From Escherichia virus TH41: 64,000 nucleotides of DNA. The stretch lies in sequence record MT446412.1. One strand, given 5' to 3'. The translations under genes and the position numbers were made by a program. Position 1 is the first letter of the stretch. Every line of letters begins with the position of its first letter. The notes beneath the pieces are model-generated. The model had not been told where the DNA came from and did not search any database. It was given only the letters and a program-made list of their open reading frames with translations. This document shows positions 2,444-28,382 of the stretch, one piece after another.

Positions 2444-2851
2444 ATGAACAACGTAACTGCTAAAGATATCCAAGTTAAAACCATCCGCACCGACGCCAAC
2501 CCACATAACCAAAACCGCATCCGCAAATCCTGGGTCCTGGCATGTGATGAAGCATCTGCTACCCGTCTGCAGTCTCTGCCGCAAGAAATTAAATTCATGC
2601 TGTACGGTGTGATTGATACTGATGTATCTGATAAGTGGATTGAACTGATGCGTAATCACTACAACGATTCACTGGCTGCTGGTGCTAAACTGGTTATCGA
2701 CCGTGACGGTTCCGAACGTCTTGAAGATGATTATTGTGTTAACTCTGACGACCATCTGGTGCAAGCTGGTTCTATTATTGCTGCGCAACTTCCAGAGTAT
2801 ATTGAATCTCTTCCGGAAGCTATCCGCAAACAAATGGCAGTTGTTGCTTAA
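2444..2851 (+). CDS. hypothetical protein, RpbA-like by position (135 aa)
   Basis: ORF 2420..2851, ATG at 2444; directly upstream of gene 45 where T4 has rpbA; sequence identity not verified. Confidence 0.4.
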   Translation: MNNVTAKDIQVKTIRTDANPHNQNRIRKSWVLACDEASATRLQSLPQEIKFMLYGVIDTDVSDKWIELMRNHYNDSLAAGAKLVIDRDGSERLEDDYCVNSDDHLVQAGSIIAAQLPEYIESLPEAIRKQMAVVA

Positions 2852-2878
2852 TTTTTGATTTGAATAAAAGGTAATTAA

Positions 2879-3574
2879 ATGAAATTCTCTAAAGACACTA
2901 TCGCAGTTCTGAAAAACTTCACCTCCATTTACTCTGGCATTATGCTTAAGCCGGGTAATACCATCCTGACTCGTTCTGTAACCGGAGCGTCATATGGTGA
3001 ATCTGAAATCAATGATACAATCGACTTTGAAGCTGCAATTTATGACCTGAACGGCTTCTTAAGTATCCTGGGTCTGGTAACTGACCAAGCTGAAGTATCT
3101 CTGGCTGAAGATGCATCGAATATCATTATCAAAGACCAACGTTCAACGATTCACTGGCCTGCAGCTGACCCGAGCACTATCGTGTTCCCTGCTAAGAAGA
3201 TTCCTTTCCCGGTAGCTAAGGTTATCTTCGACCTGAAAGGTAGTGACCTGCAGCAGCTTCTGCGTGTGGCTGGTGGGTTGTCTCTGGATACTTTTGCAAT
3301 CACCAACAAAGACGGTAAGATTGTTATCCATGGTTATAACCAGCTCGAAGATAAAGAATTAGCACGCCCATTGTATTCCCTGGTGTGTGGCGATTACGAA
3401 GGCGATGCAGCGTTTAAATTTATCATTAACAAACTGAACATGAAAATGATTCCGGCTGATTACCGTGTTATGCTTTGGGCGAAAGATGATAAATTTGCTA
3501 CGAAGTTTGAAGGCACACAAGCAAGCTATGTGATTGCAATGGAACAAGGCTCTAGCCACGAATTCCAAGATTAA
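2879..3574 (+). CDS. 45: sliding clamp gp45
   Basis: 231 aa; N-terminus MKFSKDTIAVLKNFTSIYSGIMLK and later blocks closely match T4 gp45. Confidence 0.93.
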   Translation: MKFSKDTIAVLKNFTSIYSGIMLKPGNTILTRSVTGASYGESEINDTIDFEAAIYDLNGFLSILGLVTDQAEVSLAEDASNIIIKDQRSTIHWPAADPSTIVFPAKKIPFPVAKVIFDLKGSDLQQLLRVAGGLSLDTFAITNKDGKIVIHGYNQLEDKELARPLYSLVCGDYEGDAAFKFIINKLNMKMIPADYRVMLWAKDDKFATKFEGTQASYVIAMEQGSSHEFQD

Positions 3575-22671: not shown

Positions 22672-22968
22672 ATGTACTACGCATATGTGCTGGTTCACAA
22701 AGATAAAGATGGTTTTGAACGCCCATTGGAGTATGATGGAAAGGTTACCTTATACACCACAAAACCGGGCGCAGAGTATGAACTTGCCAACTATTTATAT
22801 ACTACAAACCGCTATTTACGCATGGGACGTATTGAAACACGGTATACTCCCAGAAAATGGTGGTTTGATAAGCGGGAAACAAAAACTGTTTTTCCTACTG
22901 AAGAACACGCACGAGAATTGAAATTAGTTTTAGATACTTTATATGTTAAGCGAGTAAAATTGGCATGA
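22672..22968 (+). CDS. hypothetical protein (about 98 aa; T4 dda.1 position)
   Basis: ORF 22669..22968; ATG at 22672. Confidence 0.5.
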   Translation: MYYAYVLVHKDKDGFERPLEYDGKVTLYTTKPGAEYELANYLYTTNRYLRMGRIETRYTPRKWWFDKRETKTVFPTEEHARELKLVLDTLYVKRVKLA

Positions 22969-24293
22969 TTAAATTTGAAGACTTGAACACAGGACAAAAA
23001 GAAGCTTTTGATTATATCACTGAAGCTATTCAGCGACGTTCAGGGGAATGTATCACTCTGAATGGTCCAGCTGGTACAGGTAAGACCACTCTGACAAAAT
23101 TTGTCATTGACCATCTAGTGCGTAATGGAGTTATGGGAATTGTGCTTGCTGCGCCAACTCACCAGGCGAAAAAAGTTTTATCTAAATTGTCTGGTCAAAC
23201 CGCGAATACAATCCATAGTATCCTGAAGATTAACCCGACCACATATGAAGACCAAAACGTTTTTGAACAACGCGAAATGCCTGACATGTCAAAATGCAAT
23301 GTTCTGGTTTGTGATGAAGCAAGTATGTATGACGGGTCTCTGTTTAAGATTATTCTTAACTCTGTTCCTGAATGGTGTACTATTCTTGGGATTGGTGATA
23401 TGCACCAGCTGCAGCCAGTTGACCCAGGAAGCACACAACAAAAGATAAGCCCATTCTTTACGCATCCTAAGTTCAAACAGATTCATCTGACTGAGGTCAT
23501 GCGAAGCAATGCTCCTATCATTGAAGTGGCGACAGAAATTCGTAATGGTGGTTGGTTCCGTGACTGTATGTATGATGGTCATGGTGTACAGGGTTTCACC
23601 TCACAAACCGCTTTAAAGGATTTCATGATAAACTATTTCAGTATTGTAAAAGATGCTGATATGTTGATGGAAAACAGGATGTATGCGTACACGAATAAAT
23701 CAGTTGAAAAACTGAACAATATTATTCGTCGCAAGCTCTATGAAACGGATAAAGCATTTTTACCGTATGAAGTCCTGGTTATGCAAGAGCCACACATGAA
23801 AGAGCTGGAATTTGAAGGCAAGAAATTCAGCGAAACCATTTTTAATAATGGTCAGTTGGTTCGCATCAAGGATTGCAAATACACTTCCACCATTCTCCGT
23901 TGTAAAGGCGAATCGCACCAGTTAGTGATTAATTACTGGGACCTGGAAGTTGAGTCAATTGATGAAGATGAAGAATATCAGGTTGACCGCATTAAAGTTT
24001 TACCAGAAGACCAGCAACCAAAATTCCAGGCATATCTGGCTAAAGTTGCTGACACATACAAACAGATGAAAGCCGCTGGTAAACGTCCGGAGTGGAAAGA
24101 CTTCTGGAAAGCTCGCCGGACCTTCTTGAAAGTTCGTGCTCTTCCGGTCAGTACAATTCACAAGGCCCAGGGCGTTTCAGTGGACAAAGCATTCATCTAT
24201 ACTCCATGCATCCATATGGCCGAAGCTTCATTAGCGAGCCAGTTGGCTTATGTAGGAATCACACGAGCGAGGTACGACGCATATTATGTATAA
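22965..24293 (+). CDS. dda: DNA helicase Dda (SF1)
   Basis: 442 aa; Walker A GPAGTGKTT, Walker B VLVCDEASM; size of T4 Dda. Confidence 0.9.
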   Translation: MIKFEDLNTGQKEAFDYITEAIQRRSGECITLNGPAGTGKTTLTKFVIDHLVRNGVMGIVLAAPTHQAKKVLSKLSGQTANTIHSILKINPTTYEDQNVFEQREMPDMSKCNVLVCDEASMYDGSLFKIILNSVPEWCTILGIGDMHQLQPVDPGSTQQKISPFFTHPKFKQIHLTEVMRSNAPIIEVATEIRNGGWFRDCMYDGHGVQGFTSQTALKDFMINYFSIVKDADMLMENRMYAYTNKSVEKLNNIIRRKLYETDKAFLPYEVLVMQEPHMKELEFEGKKFSETIFNNGQLVRIKDCKYTSTILRCKGESHQLVINYWDLEVESIDEDEEYQVDRIKVLPEDQQPKFQAYLAKVADTYKQMKAAGKRPEWKDFWKARRTFLKVRALPVSTIHKAQGVSVDKAFIYTPCIHMAEASLASQLAYVGITRARYDAYYV

Positions 24294-24531: not shown

Positions 24532-24560
24532 AATTCAAAAATTAAAAGAGATGTGCGATG
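24481..24560 (+). repeat. perfect tandem duplication, 2 x 40 bp with 1 mismatch
   Basis: GTTGCTGGTGAAATTCA(G/A)AAATTAAAAGAGATGTGCGATG repeated head-to-tail; second copy ends in the dexA start codon. Confidence 0.9.
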
Positions 24561-25241
24561 ATTGATGCTATTATTGACTTTGAAACTCTGGGAAACGGCT
24601 CGAAGGGAGCCGTTATTGACCTGGCTCTGATTACATTCGAATCTGACCCTGCTATTGTGGAATCATTCGAAACCCTGGTTAATCGCGGCAAACGTATCAA
24701 GTTTAGCCTTGAATACCAAAAAGGTAAGCGTCTGTTCGATACAACAACCATGAGTTGGTGGAAAAAGCAATCAGCAGAAGCCCGTGTTAACTTGGCTCCT
24801 TCTGCGCAAGATGTTGATACTCTGACCGGTATCCAACAGGCAATTGATTATCTGAATGGTAATGGAATTAACAAATACGAAAGCCTTATGTGGTGTCGTG
24901 GAATGTCTTTTGACTTCCCGTTGTTTGTTGACCTTATCCGTGACCTACAGCGCAATGAGGGTATTCCCGAGCGTGAATTGAATACATATGGCCTGGAGCC
25001 GGTTGTATTCTGGAACCAGCGAGATATCAGGACAGCAATCGAAGCCCTATCACTCGTCCGTAAGATGTGTGAAACTCCATTACCAAAGGGGGCTTTAGAT
25101 GGATTTGTGGCGCATGATTCGGTGCATGACTGCGCGAAAGATATTTTGATGCTTAAGTATGCCCAGCGCTATGCTCTTGGTTTGGATGAAGTTCCTTCCG
25201 AAGAAGATGCAGACCCGTTATCTTTACCGAAAAAACGATAA
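24558..25241 (+). CDS. dexA: exonuclease A DexA
   Basis: 227 aa as in T4; DEDDh-like N-terminus IIDFETLG. Confidence 0.8.
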   Translation: MIDAIIDFETLGNGSKGAVIDLALITFESDPAIVESFETLVNRGKRIKFSLEYQKGKRLFDTTTMSWWKKQSAEARVNLAPSAQDVDTLTGIQQAIDYLNGNGINKYESLMWCRGMSFDFPLFVDLIRDLQRNEGIPERELNTYGLEPVVFWNQRDIRTAIEALSLVRKMCETPLPKGALDGFVAHDSVHDCAKDILMLKYAQRYALGLDEVPSEEDADPLSLPKKR

Positions 25242-25247
25242 AAAGTA

Positions 25248-25277
25248 GTGTACAAGGCCAATGGAAAGAGACATAAT
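25248..25277 (+). promoter_or_regulatory. early promoter cassette
   Basis: GTGTACA, 17 nt, CATAAT; stem-loop CTCATCA-actac-TGATGAG in leader. Confidence 0.6.
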
Positions 25278-25308
25278 CATCTCATCAACTACTGATGAGG
25301 ATAACAAA

Positions 25309-25566
25309 ATGATTACTTCTTTTGAAATTGGCCAACAATATGAAATGTCTGCTTTTCAAGCTGCTGAAGCAGGTCTGACTGAAGCGTTTGAATGTGCATT
25401 TACAAATATTCGTGGTAAAATCTTTACTGTCAATAAAATTGCGGTATATGATAAAGAAACAGACATGAACAAAGGCATCTACTTGAACGTGTCAAACGCA
25501 AAAGGCCGTCGTGAAATTATGGTTGTACAACCTAACCAACTGGCGATGTTCAATAAGGTTACATAA
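25309..25566 (+). CDS. hypothetical protein (85 aa)
   Basis: ATG at 25309 right after the leader. Confidence 0.5.
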   Translation: MITSFEIGQQYEMSAFQAAEAGLTEAFECAFTNIRGKIFTVNKIAVYDKETDMNKGIYLNVSNAKGRREIMVVQPNQLAMFNKVT

Positions 25567-26321
25567 TGAAACCAGAATTTATTGACTTTGATGTTGTAAG
25601 CATGTATGTTCGCCCAATTAAACCATTAAAACTTGAGAAACAAAATATGACTATTGAAATTAACAAAACTTATCAACTGATTGAACCTATTATTCAAAAC
25701 GCAGCTATGGTTTCTGGGTATAATACTCTGACTGATGCTTTAGGCGAAGGTGAATTTATTGTTGAAACTTTTGTAAAAAGTAACTGGTTTGATAAAGCAT
25801 ATATTTTGCATGCACGTCGCCTTGATACAAATGAAGTAGAAAAAATTATGGTTTATGAAGCTGAGATTGAACTCTTCAAAGAAGTTGAAGAAACTCCCAT
25901 CAAAGTTGGTAAAACCTATCAGCTTATTGAAGATGCCAGTCAGTTTGGAAAGACTGTTGCAATGCATGCCGGGTGGCGGGTACTGAAAGGTATTTTTGGA
26001 TTTGCTCCATTTACCGTTAAAACAGTTAAGTACCACAATCACCAAAGCATCTTTGAATTTACTGCGGTCAATGAATCAGGTGACAATCTTGAAGCTATCC
26101 TTTATCCGCGTGAATCTGTACTGCTGGAAGAAGTTAGCGAGCTTGGCGACCCTATTGACTTGCTATGTAAACCAGTTCAAATCAAACGCCCATTTAACAG
26201 TTCCATTTGTGGTTGGGTAACAGACCAGTGGATTGAAGATGGTGTTGAACTCCTGAACGTTGTTCATTGTGGTAGTTTTACTGTTGTACCACGTTCCATG
26301 GTTGTTGAAATTTTTAATTAA
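25566..26321 (+). CDS. hypothetical protein (251 aa) with internal repeat
   Basis: Internal duplication (INKTYQLIEP / VGKTYQLIED) and C-terminal domain shared with the ORF at 26398. Confidence 0.55.
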   Translation: MKPEFIDFDVVSMYVRPIKPLKLEKQNMTIEINKTYQLIEPIIQNAAMVSGYNTLTDALGEGEFIVETFVKSNWFDKAYILHARRLDTNEVEKIMVYEAEIELFKEVEETPIKVGKTYQLIEDASQFGKTVAMHAGWRVLKGIFGFAPFTVKTVKYHNHQSIFEFTAVNESGDNLEAILYPRESVLLEEVSELGDPIDLLCKPVQIKRPFNSSICGWVTDQWIEDGVELLNVVHCGSFTVVPRSMVVEIFN

Positions 26322-26325
26322 ATTT

Positions 26326-26355
26326 GTGTACAAACTCGTGGGGCCAGAGTATAAT
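26326..26355 (+). promoter_or_regulatory. early promoter cassette
   Basis: GTGTACA, 17 nt, TATAAT flanked by GGGGCCA..TGGTCCC imperfect inverted repeat. Confidence 0.6.
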
Positions 26356-26397
26356 GGTCCCACTGGAGAATAAACTTATTAATCAAGAGAGAAAATT

Positions 26398-26889
26398 ATG
26401 AAAGTTGAAGCTGGTGATATTGTACGCGTTTCTAAAGAATCTCGTTCTAAAGCTGCTGGTCGTTTTGTTGAGGTTGTGGGTCTTCGCACTAATTTAGTAG
26501 GTGGAATTAAAGAAGTTAAAGTGCGTATTATTCCTAAAAATGGCCAGACTGAAACTCAATTGGCTTATGTACATCCTAAATTCCTGGAATCAACTGAATT
26601 TACTGGATATATCGCTCCTGTGGTTGAAGAAGTTGAAACCATTGACCAGTCTCATGTTGGGGTTGATTTTAAATGGAAATTAGGTAAAGGTGTCTTTTTC
26701 GTTTCACCTAAACCGTTTGAATACAATTGCAAGTATGGTCCGACTTATGAAACCACTAGCATGTCTGGTTATATCACAGACCAGTGGGTTGAAGAAGGGG
26801 TTAAACTGTATAATATTGTGTTCCTTGGAACCTTTAAGGTTGTTCCTGAAAGTTTTATCGTTGAGTATGCTGATATTCATTTTGCCTAA
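26398..26889 (+). CDS. hypothetical protein (163 aa), paralog of the C-terminal domain of 25566..26321
   Basis: Shared block ITDQWVEEGVKLYNIVFLGTFKVVPESFIVE. Confidence 0.55.
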   Translation: MKVEAGDIVRVSKESRSKAAGRFVEVVGLRTNLVGGIKEVKVRIIPKNGQTETQLAYVHPKFLESTEFTGYIAPVVEEVETIDQSHVGVDFKWKLGKGVFFVSPKPFEYNCKYGPTYETTSMSGYITDQWVEEGVKLYNIVFLGTFKVVPESFIVEYADIHFA

Positions 26890-26939
26890 ATTATAAAATA
26901 ATGATAGGGTAATTTTGCCCTATCAATGAGGAGAATATT

Positions 26940-27170
26940 ATGTTTAATGAAGATTGCGTGACCACTTCCCTGACCGCTGAAGAGTTCTGGGAAACCGCTG
27001 AAAGTGATAAAGTGATTGTTAAGAAAAACATCAATGAATTTCTTTGCACCACTGATATCATTTATGTGTATGCGTATGAAGGCGCGGAATTACCTAGCTA
27101 TGCACTGTTCCGTGAAGAATCAGAAGATGGCACAGATTTTTGGAAGGAGACTTATCATGTTGAAATTTGA
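26940..27170 (+). CDS. hypothetical protein (76 aa)
   Basis: ORF with GAGGAGA RBS. Confidence 0.5.
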   Translation: MFNEDCVTTSLTAEEFWETAESDKVIVKKNINEFLCTTDIIYVYAYEGAELPSYALFREESEDGTDFWKETYHVEI

Positions 27171-27531
27171 AACTGATAAATGGTATTATTTTAAAGATAA
27201 TGTTGCTGAAAGCAGATTTCGTTTGTTATGCTCTGATAATGATAATATAGCTGATGCTATAATCAATGGTGAAGGATTTAGACCAGTCGGAATTGAAGGT
27301 GGTGATGTATATCGGATAGAATTTTCGACCGGTGGAATAGAGAGAATATTCATAAAGGAAGATGAGCGTCGTTTCTTTGAAGAAGAAAAAGATGACGATA
27401 CTGAAGACGAATGCGAAGACGCTGATGAAGCATTTGAACCAAGCGAATTCCCTTTGACTAAAATCACCATTTCTAATAACTCTGAAGCCTGGACCGTTTA
27501 CCAGATGTTGAAAGCACACTTTAAGGAATAA
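27157..27531 (+). CDS. hypothetical acidic protein (124 aa)
   Basis: ORF 27016..27531 with ATG at 27157; acidic C-terminal half. Confidence 0.5.
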   Translation: MLKFETDKWYYFKDNVAESRFRLLCSDNDNIADAIINGEGFRPVGIEGGDVYRIEFSTGGIERIFIKEDERRFFEEEKDDDTEDECEDADEAFEPSEFPLTKITISNNSEAWTVYQMLKAHFKE

Positions 27532-27983: not shown

Positions 27984-28382
27984 ATGTTTAAAATTGGAAA
28001 GAGTTATTGCATTAAAGATTTAGATGGCTTCCTTAAACATGTCGGTATGCCTGGTAGCATTTTGAACCAACAAGGAACCTCTATCATTGATTTGGTTACT
28101 ACCAAAGAGTTTTCAGTCACTAAGATGGAAGCAAATGTTGTTACGGAATTTAGTACTATAGATGGAACTGGATTTTCTTTCCATAGTCGTAATGGAACCG
28201 GTCTTATTTTTGGTGATGAATTTAAATATTTTGAAGAAGTCCCGGAATGTGATTCTGAAATAACCGAACAGGAATCAAAAGAGGATATCGTTGTTACCGG
28301 CGGCGATGTTATTATTACGGTTAAAACTGAAGCCGGCCGTCTACAAGCTATTAAAATGTTAGAGCAGCTTCGATTCAAATAA
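27984..28382 (+). CDS. hypothetical protein (132 aa)
   Basis: ORF 27807..28382 with ATG at 27984 after GAGGA RBS. Confidence 0.5.
   Translation: MFKIGKSYCIKDLDGFLKHVGMPGSILNQQGTSIIDLVTTKEFSVTKMEANVVTEFSTIDGTGFSFHSRNGTGLIFGDEFKYFEEVPECDSEITEQESKEDIVVTGGDVIITVKTEAGRLQAIKMLEQLRFK

What the first reader, a model, noticed from the sequence alone, without database searches (positions are those of the whole stretch)
25566..26889. Repeat-containing protein family between dexA and gene 39
ORF 25566..26321 has an internal duplication (INKTYQLIEP versus VGKTYQLIED). It also shares its C-terminal domain with ORF 26398..26889 (TDQW-x-E-x-GV-x-L-x-N-x-V...F-x-VVP-x-S), which has its own cassette promoter. 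This is a modular family built by domain duplication and shuffling; the function is unknown.
Basis: seen in the sequence. Interest (0 to 1): 0.4.

Follow-up and report, generated by a model that had tools for sequence, protein, structure and literature searches.

The report
T4-type motB.1 and motB genes
The two ORFs are the known early genes motB.1 and motB of a T4-like (Gaprivervirus-type) phage, and their shared C-terminal domain is already published; the only apparently undescribed detail is that this lineage's MotB.1 carries two N-terminal small beta-barrel modules where other phages carry one.

Summary
Both observations are real and significant. The shared C-terminal domain gives BLASTP E=4e-13. 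The internal repeat gives BLASTP E=2e-6 and a profile-profile E=2e-13 over the whole 80-residue module.

The genes are not an unknown family. ORF 26398-26889 is MotB (Pfam PF17613, 174 bits). T4 MotB is a characterised non-specific DNA-binding protein that remodels H-NS-DNA complexes. ORF 25566-26321 is MotB.1 (phrog_2333, E=1.9e-77), annotated motB.1 in the 96%-identical phage SP18.

The literature already covers most of the finding. The MotB/MotB.1 shared C-terminal domain and the variable N-terminal domains were described in 2021 (PMC7827196). The LSm-like/SH3-like N-terminal barrel of MotB.1 was described in 2025 (PMC12152347).

What I found no description of:
- The 251-aa protein reads leader, barrel A, barrel B, C-terminal domain. 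Barrel B is found only in 33 Gaprivervirus-like genomes.
- A and B are only 35% identical, so the arrangement is old or was assembled by recombination. It is not a recent duplication.

MotB.1 function remains unproven. I infer that the acidic shared C-terminal domain is a partner-docking module and the barrels are interchangeable ligand-binding heads.

Novelty: already known. Interest: low.

The parts
25566..26321 (+). motB.1 coding sequence (251 aa). Its ATG overlaps the TAA stop of the upstream 101-aa ORF (TAATG).
   Evidence: phrog_2333 E=1.9e-77. Pfam motB matches the C-terminal domain only, 36 bits against a cut-off of 25. Annotated motB.1 in SP18 and VR7.
25566..25649 (+). Leader, aa 1-28. 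It holds the conserved motif IDFDVVSMYVRPIKPL and is predicted to be disordered.
   Evidence: pLDDT is below 50 for residues 1-27. D7, D9, Y14, K19, P20 and L21 are nearly invariant. The same motif lies just before the C-terminal domain in KOW-type and LSm-type relatives.
25650..25889 (+). N-terminal barrel module A, aa 29-108. This is the type found in most ~180-aa MotB.1 homologues.
   Evidence: It matches phrog_2333 positions 43-129 at E=1.5e-22. It is 65% identical to the Tequatrovirus A module. pLDDT is 80-91, with element order b1-helix-b2-b3-b4-helix-b5.
25890..26141 (+). N-terminal barrel module B, aa 109-192. It is an in-register 83-residue extra module specific to Gaprivervirus-like phages.
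   Evidence: The alignment shows a clean insertion. tblastn with B alone finds 33 phage records, all at 75% identity or more. hhalign against A gives E=2e-13. It is 53% identical to the single-module metagenomic form P0094.
26142..26318 (+). C-terminal domain shared with MotB, aa 193-251 (DPxDLLCKPV...CGWVTDQWIEDGVELLNVVH.G.F.VVPRS). It is a five-stranded small beta-barrel.
   Evidence: BLASTP E=4e-13 against MotB. Alignment A3. Strands at 203-207, 213-224, 227-234, 237-242 and 246-249, with pLDDT 80-88.
26327..26355 (+). Early-type sigma-70 promoter of motB (TGTACA-17-TATAAT). A conserved inverted repeat GGGGCCA/TGGTCCC brackets the -10 element, and a GGAG follows it.
   Evidence: Best promoter match in the region. 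Promoter and hairpin are conserved in T4 and in locus L004.
26398..26889 (+). motB coding sequence (163 aa).
   Evidence: Pfam PF17613 E=3.7e-51, 173.6 bits, full length. phrog_1671 E=3.9e-67. Annotated motB in relatives.
26398..26595 (+). MotB N-terminal KOW/SH3-like domain, aa 1-66. It is basic (pI about 10).
26659..26886 (+). MotB C-terminal domain, aa 88-163. It is homologous to the MotB.1 C-terminal domain and has a longer first hairpin.
   Evidence: Alignment A3. pLDDT 84-95. phrog_2333 matches MotB aa 80-156 at E=2.9e-11.

Best explanation
SHOWN. The region is the conserved early-gene block dexA - (variable ORF) - motB.1 - motB - cef - goF - 39.2 - 39.1 - 39 of a T4-like phage. The phage is Gaprivervirus-type, 98.6% identical to phage UPEC01. 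ORF 26398-26889 is MotB: a basic KOW/SH3-like N-terminal domain, a disordered acidic linker, and a C-terminal domain. ORF 25566-26321 is MotB.1: a conserved disordered leader motif, two homologous SH3/LSm-like barrels (A and B), and the same C-terminal domain.

The family is a mosaic. A rare C-terminal domain is combined with interchangeable N-terminal barrels: KOW, or one or two LSm-like modules. That domain has only 36 clusters among 1.84 billion representative proteins, and 7 of those are tail-protein repeat matches. The two-barrel form is confined to Gaprivervirus-like phages. It arose either from an old duplication or from in-register recombination of two long-diverged N-terminal alleles. 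It is not a recent tandem duplication.

ESTABLISHED ELSEWHERE, for T4 MotB. It binds DNA tightly without sequence specificity. It co-purifies with H-NS and StpA, changes H-NS footprints, de-represses H-NS-silenced host genes, and doubles burst size.

INFERRED, mechanism. In MotB the positive charge sits on the KOW domain, while the shared C-terminal domain is acidic to neutral. I therefore propose that the KOW domain contacts DNA. The shared C-terminal domain, possibly together with the leader motif, would be a docking or oligomerisation module for a common partner: H-NS/StpA, or MotB itself.

MotB.1 is acidic throughout (pI 4.9, net charge -13). I propose it uses the same C-terminal domain to reach the same partner but presents LSm/SH3-like barrels that bind a different ligand (RNA, peptide or protein). 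In this lineage the barrels are doubled, which doubles valency. motB also has its own early promoter, so it can be made independently of transcripts that read through from dexA and motB.1.
For: Identity:
- Pfam, PHROG and annotation.
- Synteny with T4, SP18 and metagenomic contigs.

Domain homology:
-.

Folds:
- AlphaFold2 models with mean pLDDT 77 and 80.

Mosaic architectures:
-.
- The C-terminal-domain profile finds only 36 clusters among 1.84e9 representatives.

Lineage restriction of module B:
-.

Age of the A/B split:
- A to A orthologues 65%, B to P0094 53%, A to B 35%.
- No DNA repeat remains.

Charge distribution:
-.

Promoter:
-.

Published biology:
- PMC6070864.
- PMC7827196.
- PMC12152347.
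Against: The mechanistic part is inference from charge and architecture only.
- Son et al. assign the C-terminal domain to a cold-shock-type OB fold that could itself bind DNA. I could not search with the C-terminal domain alone, so the choice between SH3-like and OB is not settled.
- A T4 motB.1 deletion has a wild-type burst size and latent period, and MotB.1 had no effect in an RNA-stability reporter. No phenotype therefore supports any role. However, the tested 13.8-kDa protein matches the size of the 119-aa reference ORF, which lacks the last ~27 residues of the C-terminal domain present in a newer T4 assembly.
- AlphaFold3 gave no confident homo-oligomers for MotB.1.
- No direct contact between MotB and H-NS has been shown; the co-purification may be mediated by DNA.
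Confidence: 0.8

Rival explanations
1. MotB.1 is an RNA-binding, Hfq-like chaperone. On this reading the LSm-like barrels, here in two copies, bind phage or host RNA and control its stability or translation, and the C-terminal domain is secondary. This is the hypothesis raised for the GoF/MotB.1/Frd.2 family.
For: - Modules A and T4 MotB.1 give weak full-length hits to the GoF family phrog_622 (E=0.04 and 0.0019).
- GoF(D25Y) stabilises gene 41 RNA (PMC12152347).
Against: - MotB.1 and wild-type GoF had no post-transcriptional effect in the reporter assay.
- Both barrels are acidic (pI 4.5 and 5.6).
- The helix lies between b1 and b2, not before b1 as in canonical Sm/LSm proteins.
- No confident ring oligomer was predicted.
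Confidence: 0.2
2. The shared C-terminal domain is the DNA-binding OB-fold module. MotB.1 would then be a second non-specific DNA-binding, nucleoid-remodelling protein, redundant with MotB.
For: - HHpred assigns the MotB C-terminal domain to the cold-shock OB family, through eIF5A (PMC7827196).
- Many database records annotate MotB.1 as a 'MotB-like transcriptional regulator'.
Against: - The C-terminal domains are acidic or neutral: pI 4.65 in MotB.1, 5.2 in this MotB, 7.9 in T4 MotB. MotB.1 as a whole has net charge -13.
- The residues invariant across the family are D, E, W, N and G on a hairpin, not basic residues.
- The top structural neighbours are SH3-like barrels.
- The database annotations are transferred by homology, not tested.
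Confidence: 0.2
3. The internal repeat is a recent in-situ tandem duplication within the Gaprivervirus motB.1 gene, made by replication slippage or unequal crossover.
For: - The two modules are adjacent and in register.
- Both begin with (I/V)x(N/G)KTYQLIE and end with L(F/L)(K/E)EV.
- The two-module form is confined to one genus.
Against: - A and B are 35% identical. A is 65% identical to Tequatrovirus A modules, and B is 53% identical to the single-module metagenomic protein P0094.
- The DNA of the two modules aligns only weakly (131 identical columns in the 260-column alignment), and the only DNA-level repeat between them is a 23-nt stretch at 74% identity.
- A separate B-plus-C-terminal-domain gene exists at the same genomic position in another phage. 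That favours recombination between allelic N-terminal types, or an ancient duplication followed by loss.
Confidence: 0.05
4. The similarities are chance or compositional, and there is no real family.
Against: E-values of 4e-13, 2e-6 and 2e-13, with no shuffle reaching the observed scores. Independent Pfam and PHROG profiles agree.
Confidence: 0.01

Closest known systems
Phage T4 MotB (Pfam PF17613, 'modifier of transcription'; PMC6070864, PMC7827196)
   Same: ORF 26398-26889 matches the full-length profile (174 bits). It has the same length (163 against 162 aa), the same KOW-like N-terminal domain, linker and C-terminal domain, the same position between motB.1 and cef, and the same early promoter with a hairpin.
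   Different: It is 53% identical to the closest T4-type MotB cluster (P0206). This MotB is less basic overall (pI 6.0 against 9.2). It lacks the ~20-residue linker insertion (ESHDGYVCESNDIRG...) that many Dhakavirus/Mosigvirus-like MotB proteins carry. DNA binding and the H-NS effect were not tested for this orthologue.
Phage T4 MotB.1 (P39415; phrog_2333; 'Category 2/4' proteins of PMC7827196; LSm-like family of PMC12152347)
   Same: It has the same C-terminal domain (72% identity over the part the T4 reference retains) and the same gene position. Its N-terminal beta-barrel belongs to the same profile family. It is an early gene in a region that is non-essential in T4.
   Different: This protein has two barrels (A and B) plus a 28-residue conserved leader, 251 aa in all. 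T4 has one short barrel of a third sequence type (27-33% identity to A and B) and no leader. The annotated T4 reference protein (119 aa) is truncated within the C-terminal domain relative to an intact ~143-aa ORF in assembly OZ035787.1.
T4 GoF and Frd.2 (LSm-like N-terminal domain family, PMC12152347)
   Same: They have a predicted five-stranded SH3/LSm-like N-terminal barrel. They are early, non-essential genes in the same region. The window encodes goF at 27157-27531 and a second GoF/Frd.2-like ORF at 27993-28382.
   Different: Their C-terminal domains are different. Sequence similarity to modules A and B is marginal (phrog_622 E=0.004-0.04) and my thin-profile hhalign did not detect it.
Eukaryotic tandem Tudor / chromo / BAH 'Royal family' readers and KOW domains (for example 53BP1 tandem Tudor 3lgf, Spt5 KOW)
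Other phage proteins that counteract H-NS: T4 Arn and T7 gp5.5 (from my own knowledge, not tested here)
   Same: They are small early phage proteins that interfere with H-NS. Arn is acidic, like MotB.1.
   Different: No sequence or fold relation was found or tested. This is a functional analogy only.

Membership tests
MotB (PF17613) | Full-length match to the family profile above Pfam's gathering score | tested here: met
   ORF 26398-26889: 173.6 bits against a cut-off of 25, profile positions 1-161 of 162. phrog_1671 E=3.9e-67.
MotB (PF17613) | N-terminal KOW/SH3-like domain plus C-terminal beta domain joined by a linker | tested here: met
MotB (PF17613) | Conserved position between motB.1 and cef in the dexA-to-39 early block | tested here: met
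   The gene order is identical in T4, SP18 and metagenomic contigs.
MotB (PF17613) | Non-specific DNA binding, co-purification with H-NS/StpA, toxicity on overexpression | not testable with these tools
   Known only for T4 MotB (PMC6070864, PMC7827196).
MotB.1 (phrog_2333; Categories 2 and 4 of PMC7827196) | C-terminal domain homologous to the MotB C-terminal domain, of the short MotB.1 type | tested here: met
   BLASTP E=4e-13. Pfam motB matches aa 211-247 at 36 bits. 72-77% identity to other MotB.1 C-terminal domains.
MotB.1 (phrog_2333; Categories 2 and 4 of PMC7827196) | Full-length profile match and position immediately upstream of motB | tested here: met
   phrog_2333 E=1.9e-77 over aa 2-251. 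The syntenic gene at the same position in SP18 is annotated motB.1.
MotB.1 (phrog_2333; Categories 2 and 4 of PMC7827196) | A single N-terminal barrel, as in T4 and in the common ~180-aa forms | tested here: not met
   Two barrels are present. 8 of 137 retrieved clusters have this form, all 90% or more identical to the window protein. This is an architectural variant, not an exclusion from the family.
LSm-like fold family of Tevenvirinae (GoF / MotB.1 / Frd.2; PMC12152347) | N-terminal bent five-stranded antiparallel beta-barrel | tested here: met
Canonical Sm/LSm/Hfq | N-terminal alpha-helix before strand 1 | tested here: not met
   The helix lies between b1 and b2 in both modules (46-59 and 131-144).
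Canonical Sm/LSm/Hfq | Ring oligomer and RNA binding | not testable with these tools
   AlphaFold3 gave no confident oligomers for T4 MotB.1, and there was no RNA effect in a reporter assay.
OB-fold, cold-shock DNA-binding family (proposed for the C-terminal domain in PMC7827196) | OB strand topology of the C-terminal domain | tested here: inconclusive

The most novel reading that the evidence does not exclude
The rare C-terminal domain and the short, conserved, disordered leader motif (h-h-D-x-D-V-x-S-M-Y-x-x-P-x-x-P) together form a portable docking unit for one host target, plausibly H-NS/StpA. The leader sits directly before the C-terminal domain in KOW-type and some LSm-type relatives, but here it is separated from it by the inserted barrels. 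T4-like phages would graft interchangeable small-barrel heads onto this unit. The fully acidic two-barrel MotB.1 of Gaprivervirus would then act as a competitor or modulator of MotB, or as a decoy for nucleoid proteins, rather than binding nucleic acid. If the 119-aa form is what was tested in T4, part of the published negative data on MotB.1 would come from a protein with a truncated C-terminal domain.
Probability: 0.12. Interest if true: 0.5.

Novelty: already known. Interest (0 to 1): 0.18.

Why it matters
It matters little beyond annotation. The window carries the ordinary motB.1-motB pair of a Gaprivervirus-type phage, and the modular relationship is published.

Three small points may help people working on T4 early proteins:
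- The Gaprivervirus MotB.1 is a natural two-barrel variant. It shows that the N-terminal module can be exchanged or added in register.
- The charge distribution argues that the shared C-terminal domain is not the DNA-binding part of MotB.
- The annotated T4 reference MotB.1 is truncated inside the shared C-terminal domain relative to a newer T4 assembly. This could affect how published negative results are read.

Tried and rejected
1. I tested whether the upstream 101-aa ORF (25261-25566) and the extra N-terminal module 'N8' of ~248-aa MotB.1 variants belong to the same barrel family.
- hmmsearch of the N-terminal-module HMM put ORF 25261 as the top non-self hit, with full-length coverage but E=0.066.
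- hhalign gave only 2.5% and 7.5% probability.
- N8 has no PHROG match.
- Result: not supported, left open.

2. I tested sequence-level links between modules A/B and the window's GoF-like ORFs, and between the C-terminal domain or KOW domain and the N-terminal modules. hhalign probabilities were 4.2% or lower. No link is detectable with the thin profiles available, which agrees with the literature statement that BLASTP does not see it.

3. I considered and rejected a recent tandem duplication.

4. Seven long proteins (601-2408 aa) were hit by the C-terminal-domain profile. They match through a short repeated motif (SLSGYATEQWVED); Pfam shows tail-protein domains in the three of four examined that had any match. 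I treat this as a motif-level resemblance, not domain homology.

5. PDB sequence searches with both family profiles found no solved relative. NCBIfam has nothing.

6. I did not search the defence-system library, because nothing pointed to a defence context.

Full report
WHAT IS THERE

The window comes from a T4-like phage. The stretch 25200-27000 is 98.6% identical to Escherichia phage UPEC01 and about 96% identical to Shigella phage SP18, genus Gaprivervirus. The plus-strand gene order is:
- dda, 22965-24293
- a small ORF
- dexA, 24558-25241
- a 101-aa ORF, 25261-25566
- ORF 25566-26321
- ORF 26398-26889
- cef, 26940-27170
- a goF-type ORF, 27157-27531
- a zinc-ribbon ORF (39.2)
- a lipoprotein-like ORF (39.1)
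- a second GoF/Frd.2-like ORF, 27993-28382
- gene 39, from 28448

It is the T4 early block dexA - motB.2 - motB.1 - motB - cef - goF - 39.2 - 39.1 - 39.

ORF 26398-26889 is MotB. It matches Pfam PF17613 at E=3.7e-51 over the full length. ORF 25566-26321 is MotB.1. It matches phrog_2333 at E=1.9e-77, and Pfam motB matches only its last 40 residues. The syntenic genes in SP18 and VR7 are annotated motB.1.

CHECKING THE OBSERVATION

Both similarities are real.

Shared C-terminal domain:
- BLASTP gives E=4e-13, 53% identity over 38 aa.
- The Smith-Waterman score is about 16 standard deviations above shuffles.
- In a family alignment the homology spans the whole domain, from DPxDLL / VDFKWKL to ...VVP(R/E)S. 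MotB carries an extra hairpin of about 17 residues.

Internal repeat:
- BLASTP gives E=2e-6.
- Profile-profile comparison gives probability 98%, E=2e-13, over 78 columns, which is the whole module.
- Both modules hit the same profile positions of phrog_2333.

Promoter: TGTACA-17-TATAAT lies at 26327-26355. It is conserved in T4 and in a metagenomic relative, although the flanking proteins are only about 50% identical.

ANATOMY

The AlphaFold2 model of the 251-aa protein has mean pLDDT 77. It shows:
- a disordered leader, aa 1-27
- two barrels with the same element order, b1-helix-b2-b3-b4-short helix-b5 (A at aa 29-108, B at aa 109-192)
- a five-stranded C-terminal domain, aa 193-251

The MotB model has mean pLDDT 80. 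It shows a four- to five-stranded N-terminal barrel, a disordered linker at 68-84, and a C-terminal domain with long hairpins.

DISTRIBUTION AND ORIGIN OF THE REPEAT

Among 137 clusters retrieved with MotB.1 queries, the architectures are:
- leader-A-CTD, about 180 aa, the large majority
- an extra N-terminal module plus leader-A-CTD, about 248 aa
- B-CTD, one metagenomic protein (P0094) at the syntenic position
- leader-A-B-CTD, only in relatives 90% or more identical to the window protein

Here CTD means the shared C-terminal domain.

The alignment shows B as a clean in-register insertion of 83 residues. tblastn with B alone finds 33 phage genomes, all Gaprivervirus-like and all at 75% identity or more.

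A is 65% identical to Tequatrovirus A modules. B is 53% identical to the module of P0094. A and B are 35% identical to each other. At the DNA level only a 23-nt stretch at 74% identity survives. The arrangement is therefore either an old duplication or a recombinational join of two diverged N-terminal alleles. It is not a recent duplication.

THE WIDER FAMILY

A C-terminal-domain profile searched against 1.84 billion representative proteins finds only 36 clusters. Seven of these are long proteins that match through a short repeated motif; the ones examined with Pfam carry tail-protein domains. The genuine members show further combinations:
- KOW with the short MotB.1-type C-terminal domain
- KOW, leader, C-terminal domain
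- LSm-like barrel, leader, C-terminal domain

The leader motif (h-h-D-x-D-V-x-S-M-Y-x-x-P) thus travels with the C-terminal domain. In those relatives it lies directly in front of the domain. In the window protein the two barrels sit between the leader and the domain.

WHAT IS KNOWN

T4 MotB is toxic when overproduced, binds modified and unmodified DNA without sequence specificity, co-purifies with H-NS and StpA, and doubles burst size (PMC6070864). It alters H-NS footprints and de-represses H-NS-controlled host genes (PMC7827196).

PMC7827196 describes the shared MotB/MotB.1 C-terminal domain. It defines four categories with different N-terminal domains and suggests a gene duplication. Its Table S4 lists SP18_gp012, which SP18 annotates as motB.1 at the syntenic position.

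PMC12152347 shows that MotB.1, GoF and Frd.2 share a predicted LSm-like/SH3-like N-terminal barrel. It also shows that a T4 motB.1 deletion has a wild-type burst, and that MotB.1 has no effect in an RNA-stability reporter.

The main text of PMC12152347 does not mention duplication or a tandem N-terminal domain, and the passages of PMC7827196 that I read do not either.

MECHANISM (INFERENCE)

Charges are asymmetric:
- MotB's KOW domain is basic, pI about 10.
- The shared C-terminal domain is acidic to neutral, pI 4.65-7.9.
- MotB.1 is acidic in every folded domain, net charge -13.

The residues invariant across both C-terminal domains are W, D, E, N and G on one hairpin.

From this I infer:
- DNA binding by MotB resides mainly in the KOW domain.
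- The shared C-terminal domain is a docking or oligomerisation module for a common partner.
- The barrels of MotB.1 are exchangeable ligand-binding heads.

This disagrees with the published suggestion that the C-terminal domain is a DNA-binding OB fold. I could not test the topology at domain level. I put about 0.3 on the mechanistic part and about 0.95 on the identification.

VERDICT

The only apparently undescribed element is the lineage-specific two-barrel MotB.1. Interest is low.

Noticed in passing
L001 (NC_000866.4) 2640-3160 minus strand; L003 (OZ035787.1) 601-1038: The T4 reference motB.1 (119 aa, ending ...WVTDQWIGRWR*) has one extra G (ATTGGAAGATGG against ATTGAAGATGG) relative to T4 assembly OZ035787.1. 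In that assembly the ORF is intact (~143 aa) and ends ...WVTDQWIEDGVELLNVVHAGEYSVVPRSAVVAILN*. The annotated T4 protein therefore lacks the last ~27 residues of the shared C-terminal domain. This is either a reference error or a strain frameshift. The 13.8-kDa MotB.1 studied in PMC12152347 matches the size of the truncated form, and the '29-aa peptide' of RB69 in PMC7827196 may be the same kind of artefact.
   Followed up: partly
window 25566-25649 (MotB.1 aa 1-28): The conserved leader motif IDFDVVSMYVRPIKPL is predicted to be disordered. D7, D9, Y14, K19, P20 and L21 are nearly invariant. It recurs in very divergent relatives but at a different place: directly before the C-terminal domain in KOW-leader-CTD proteins (P0264, P0265, P0267, P0271, P0273) and in one LSm-leader-CTD protein (P0269). 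Here the barrels look inserted between the leader and the C-terminal domain. It behaves like a short linear motif, and its partner is unknown.
   Followed up: partly
window 26333-26370: An inverted repeat, GGGGCCA...TGGTCCC, brackets the -10 TATAAT of the motB promoter and is followed by GGAG. The hairpin is conserved in T4 (GGGACCA/TGGTCCC, where an A-T pair replaces a G.T pair) and in L004 (GGACC/GGTCC). It could structure read-through RNA from motB.1. From my own knowledge, GGAG is the motif cut by T4 RegB.
   Followed up: no
window 25261-25566: The slot that holds motB.2 in T4 (166 aa; the equivalent gene in L005/L006 is Pfam Phage_T4_Y00F) holds an unrelated 101-aa ORF here (phrog_17795, no Pfam match). 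Its stop overlaps the motB.1 start (TAATG). It gives a weak but full-length match to the MotB.1 barrel HMM (E=0.066, the best non-self hit among 464 ORFs), which hhalign does not support (2.5% probability).
   Followed up: partly
window 27157-27531 and 27993-28382: There are two GoF/Frd.2-type ORFs in the same early block (phrog_622 E=1.3e-29 and 1.1e-15). The second also matches the goF phrog_13003 at E=5.7e-7 and gives a weak Pfam FRD2 hit. It lies between 39.1 and gene 39, where T4 has no gene. Together with MotB.1, this puts four predicted LSm/SH3-like barrels within 3 kb.
   Followed up: no
P0274, P0277-P0280, P0282, P0284: Long proteins (three of four examined with Pfam carry phage-tail domains) have 4-7 copies of a short repeat, SLSGYATEQWV(E/L)D. 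The repeat closely resembles the most conserved hairpin of the C-terminal domain (SMSGYITDQWVEEG). The similarity covers only about 14-24 residues per copy and is probably motif-level convergence.
   Followed up: partly
MotB homologues P0186-P0257: MotB is itself mosaic. There are two N-terminal sequence types (MKVEAGDIVRVSKESRSKAAGR... and MKIGDIVRVSLDSKSKVSGKK...), an optional linker insertion of about 20 residues (ESHDGYVCESNDIRGVVAQDVE) that this window lacks, and at least three C-terminal-domain subtypes. These occur in different combinations.
   Followed up: no
window 26902-26925: An 8-bp stem-loop (TGATAGGG-N8-CCCTATCA) lies between motB and cef, just upstream of the cef ribosome-binding site. 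It is not followed by a T run on the coding strand, so it is not a canonical terminator.
   Followed up: no
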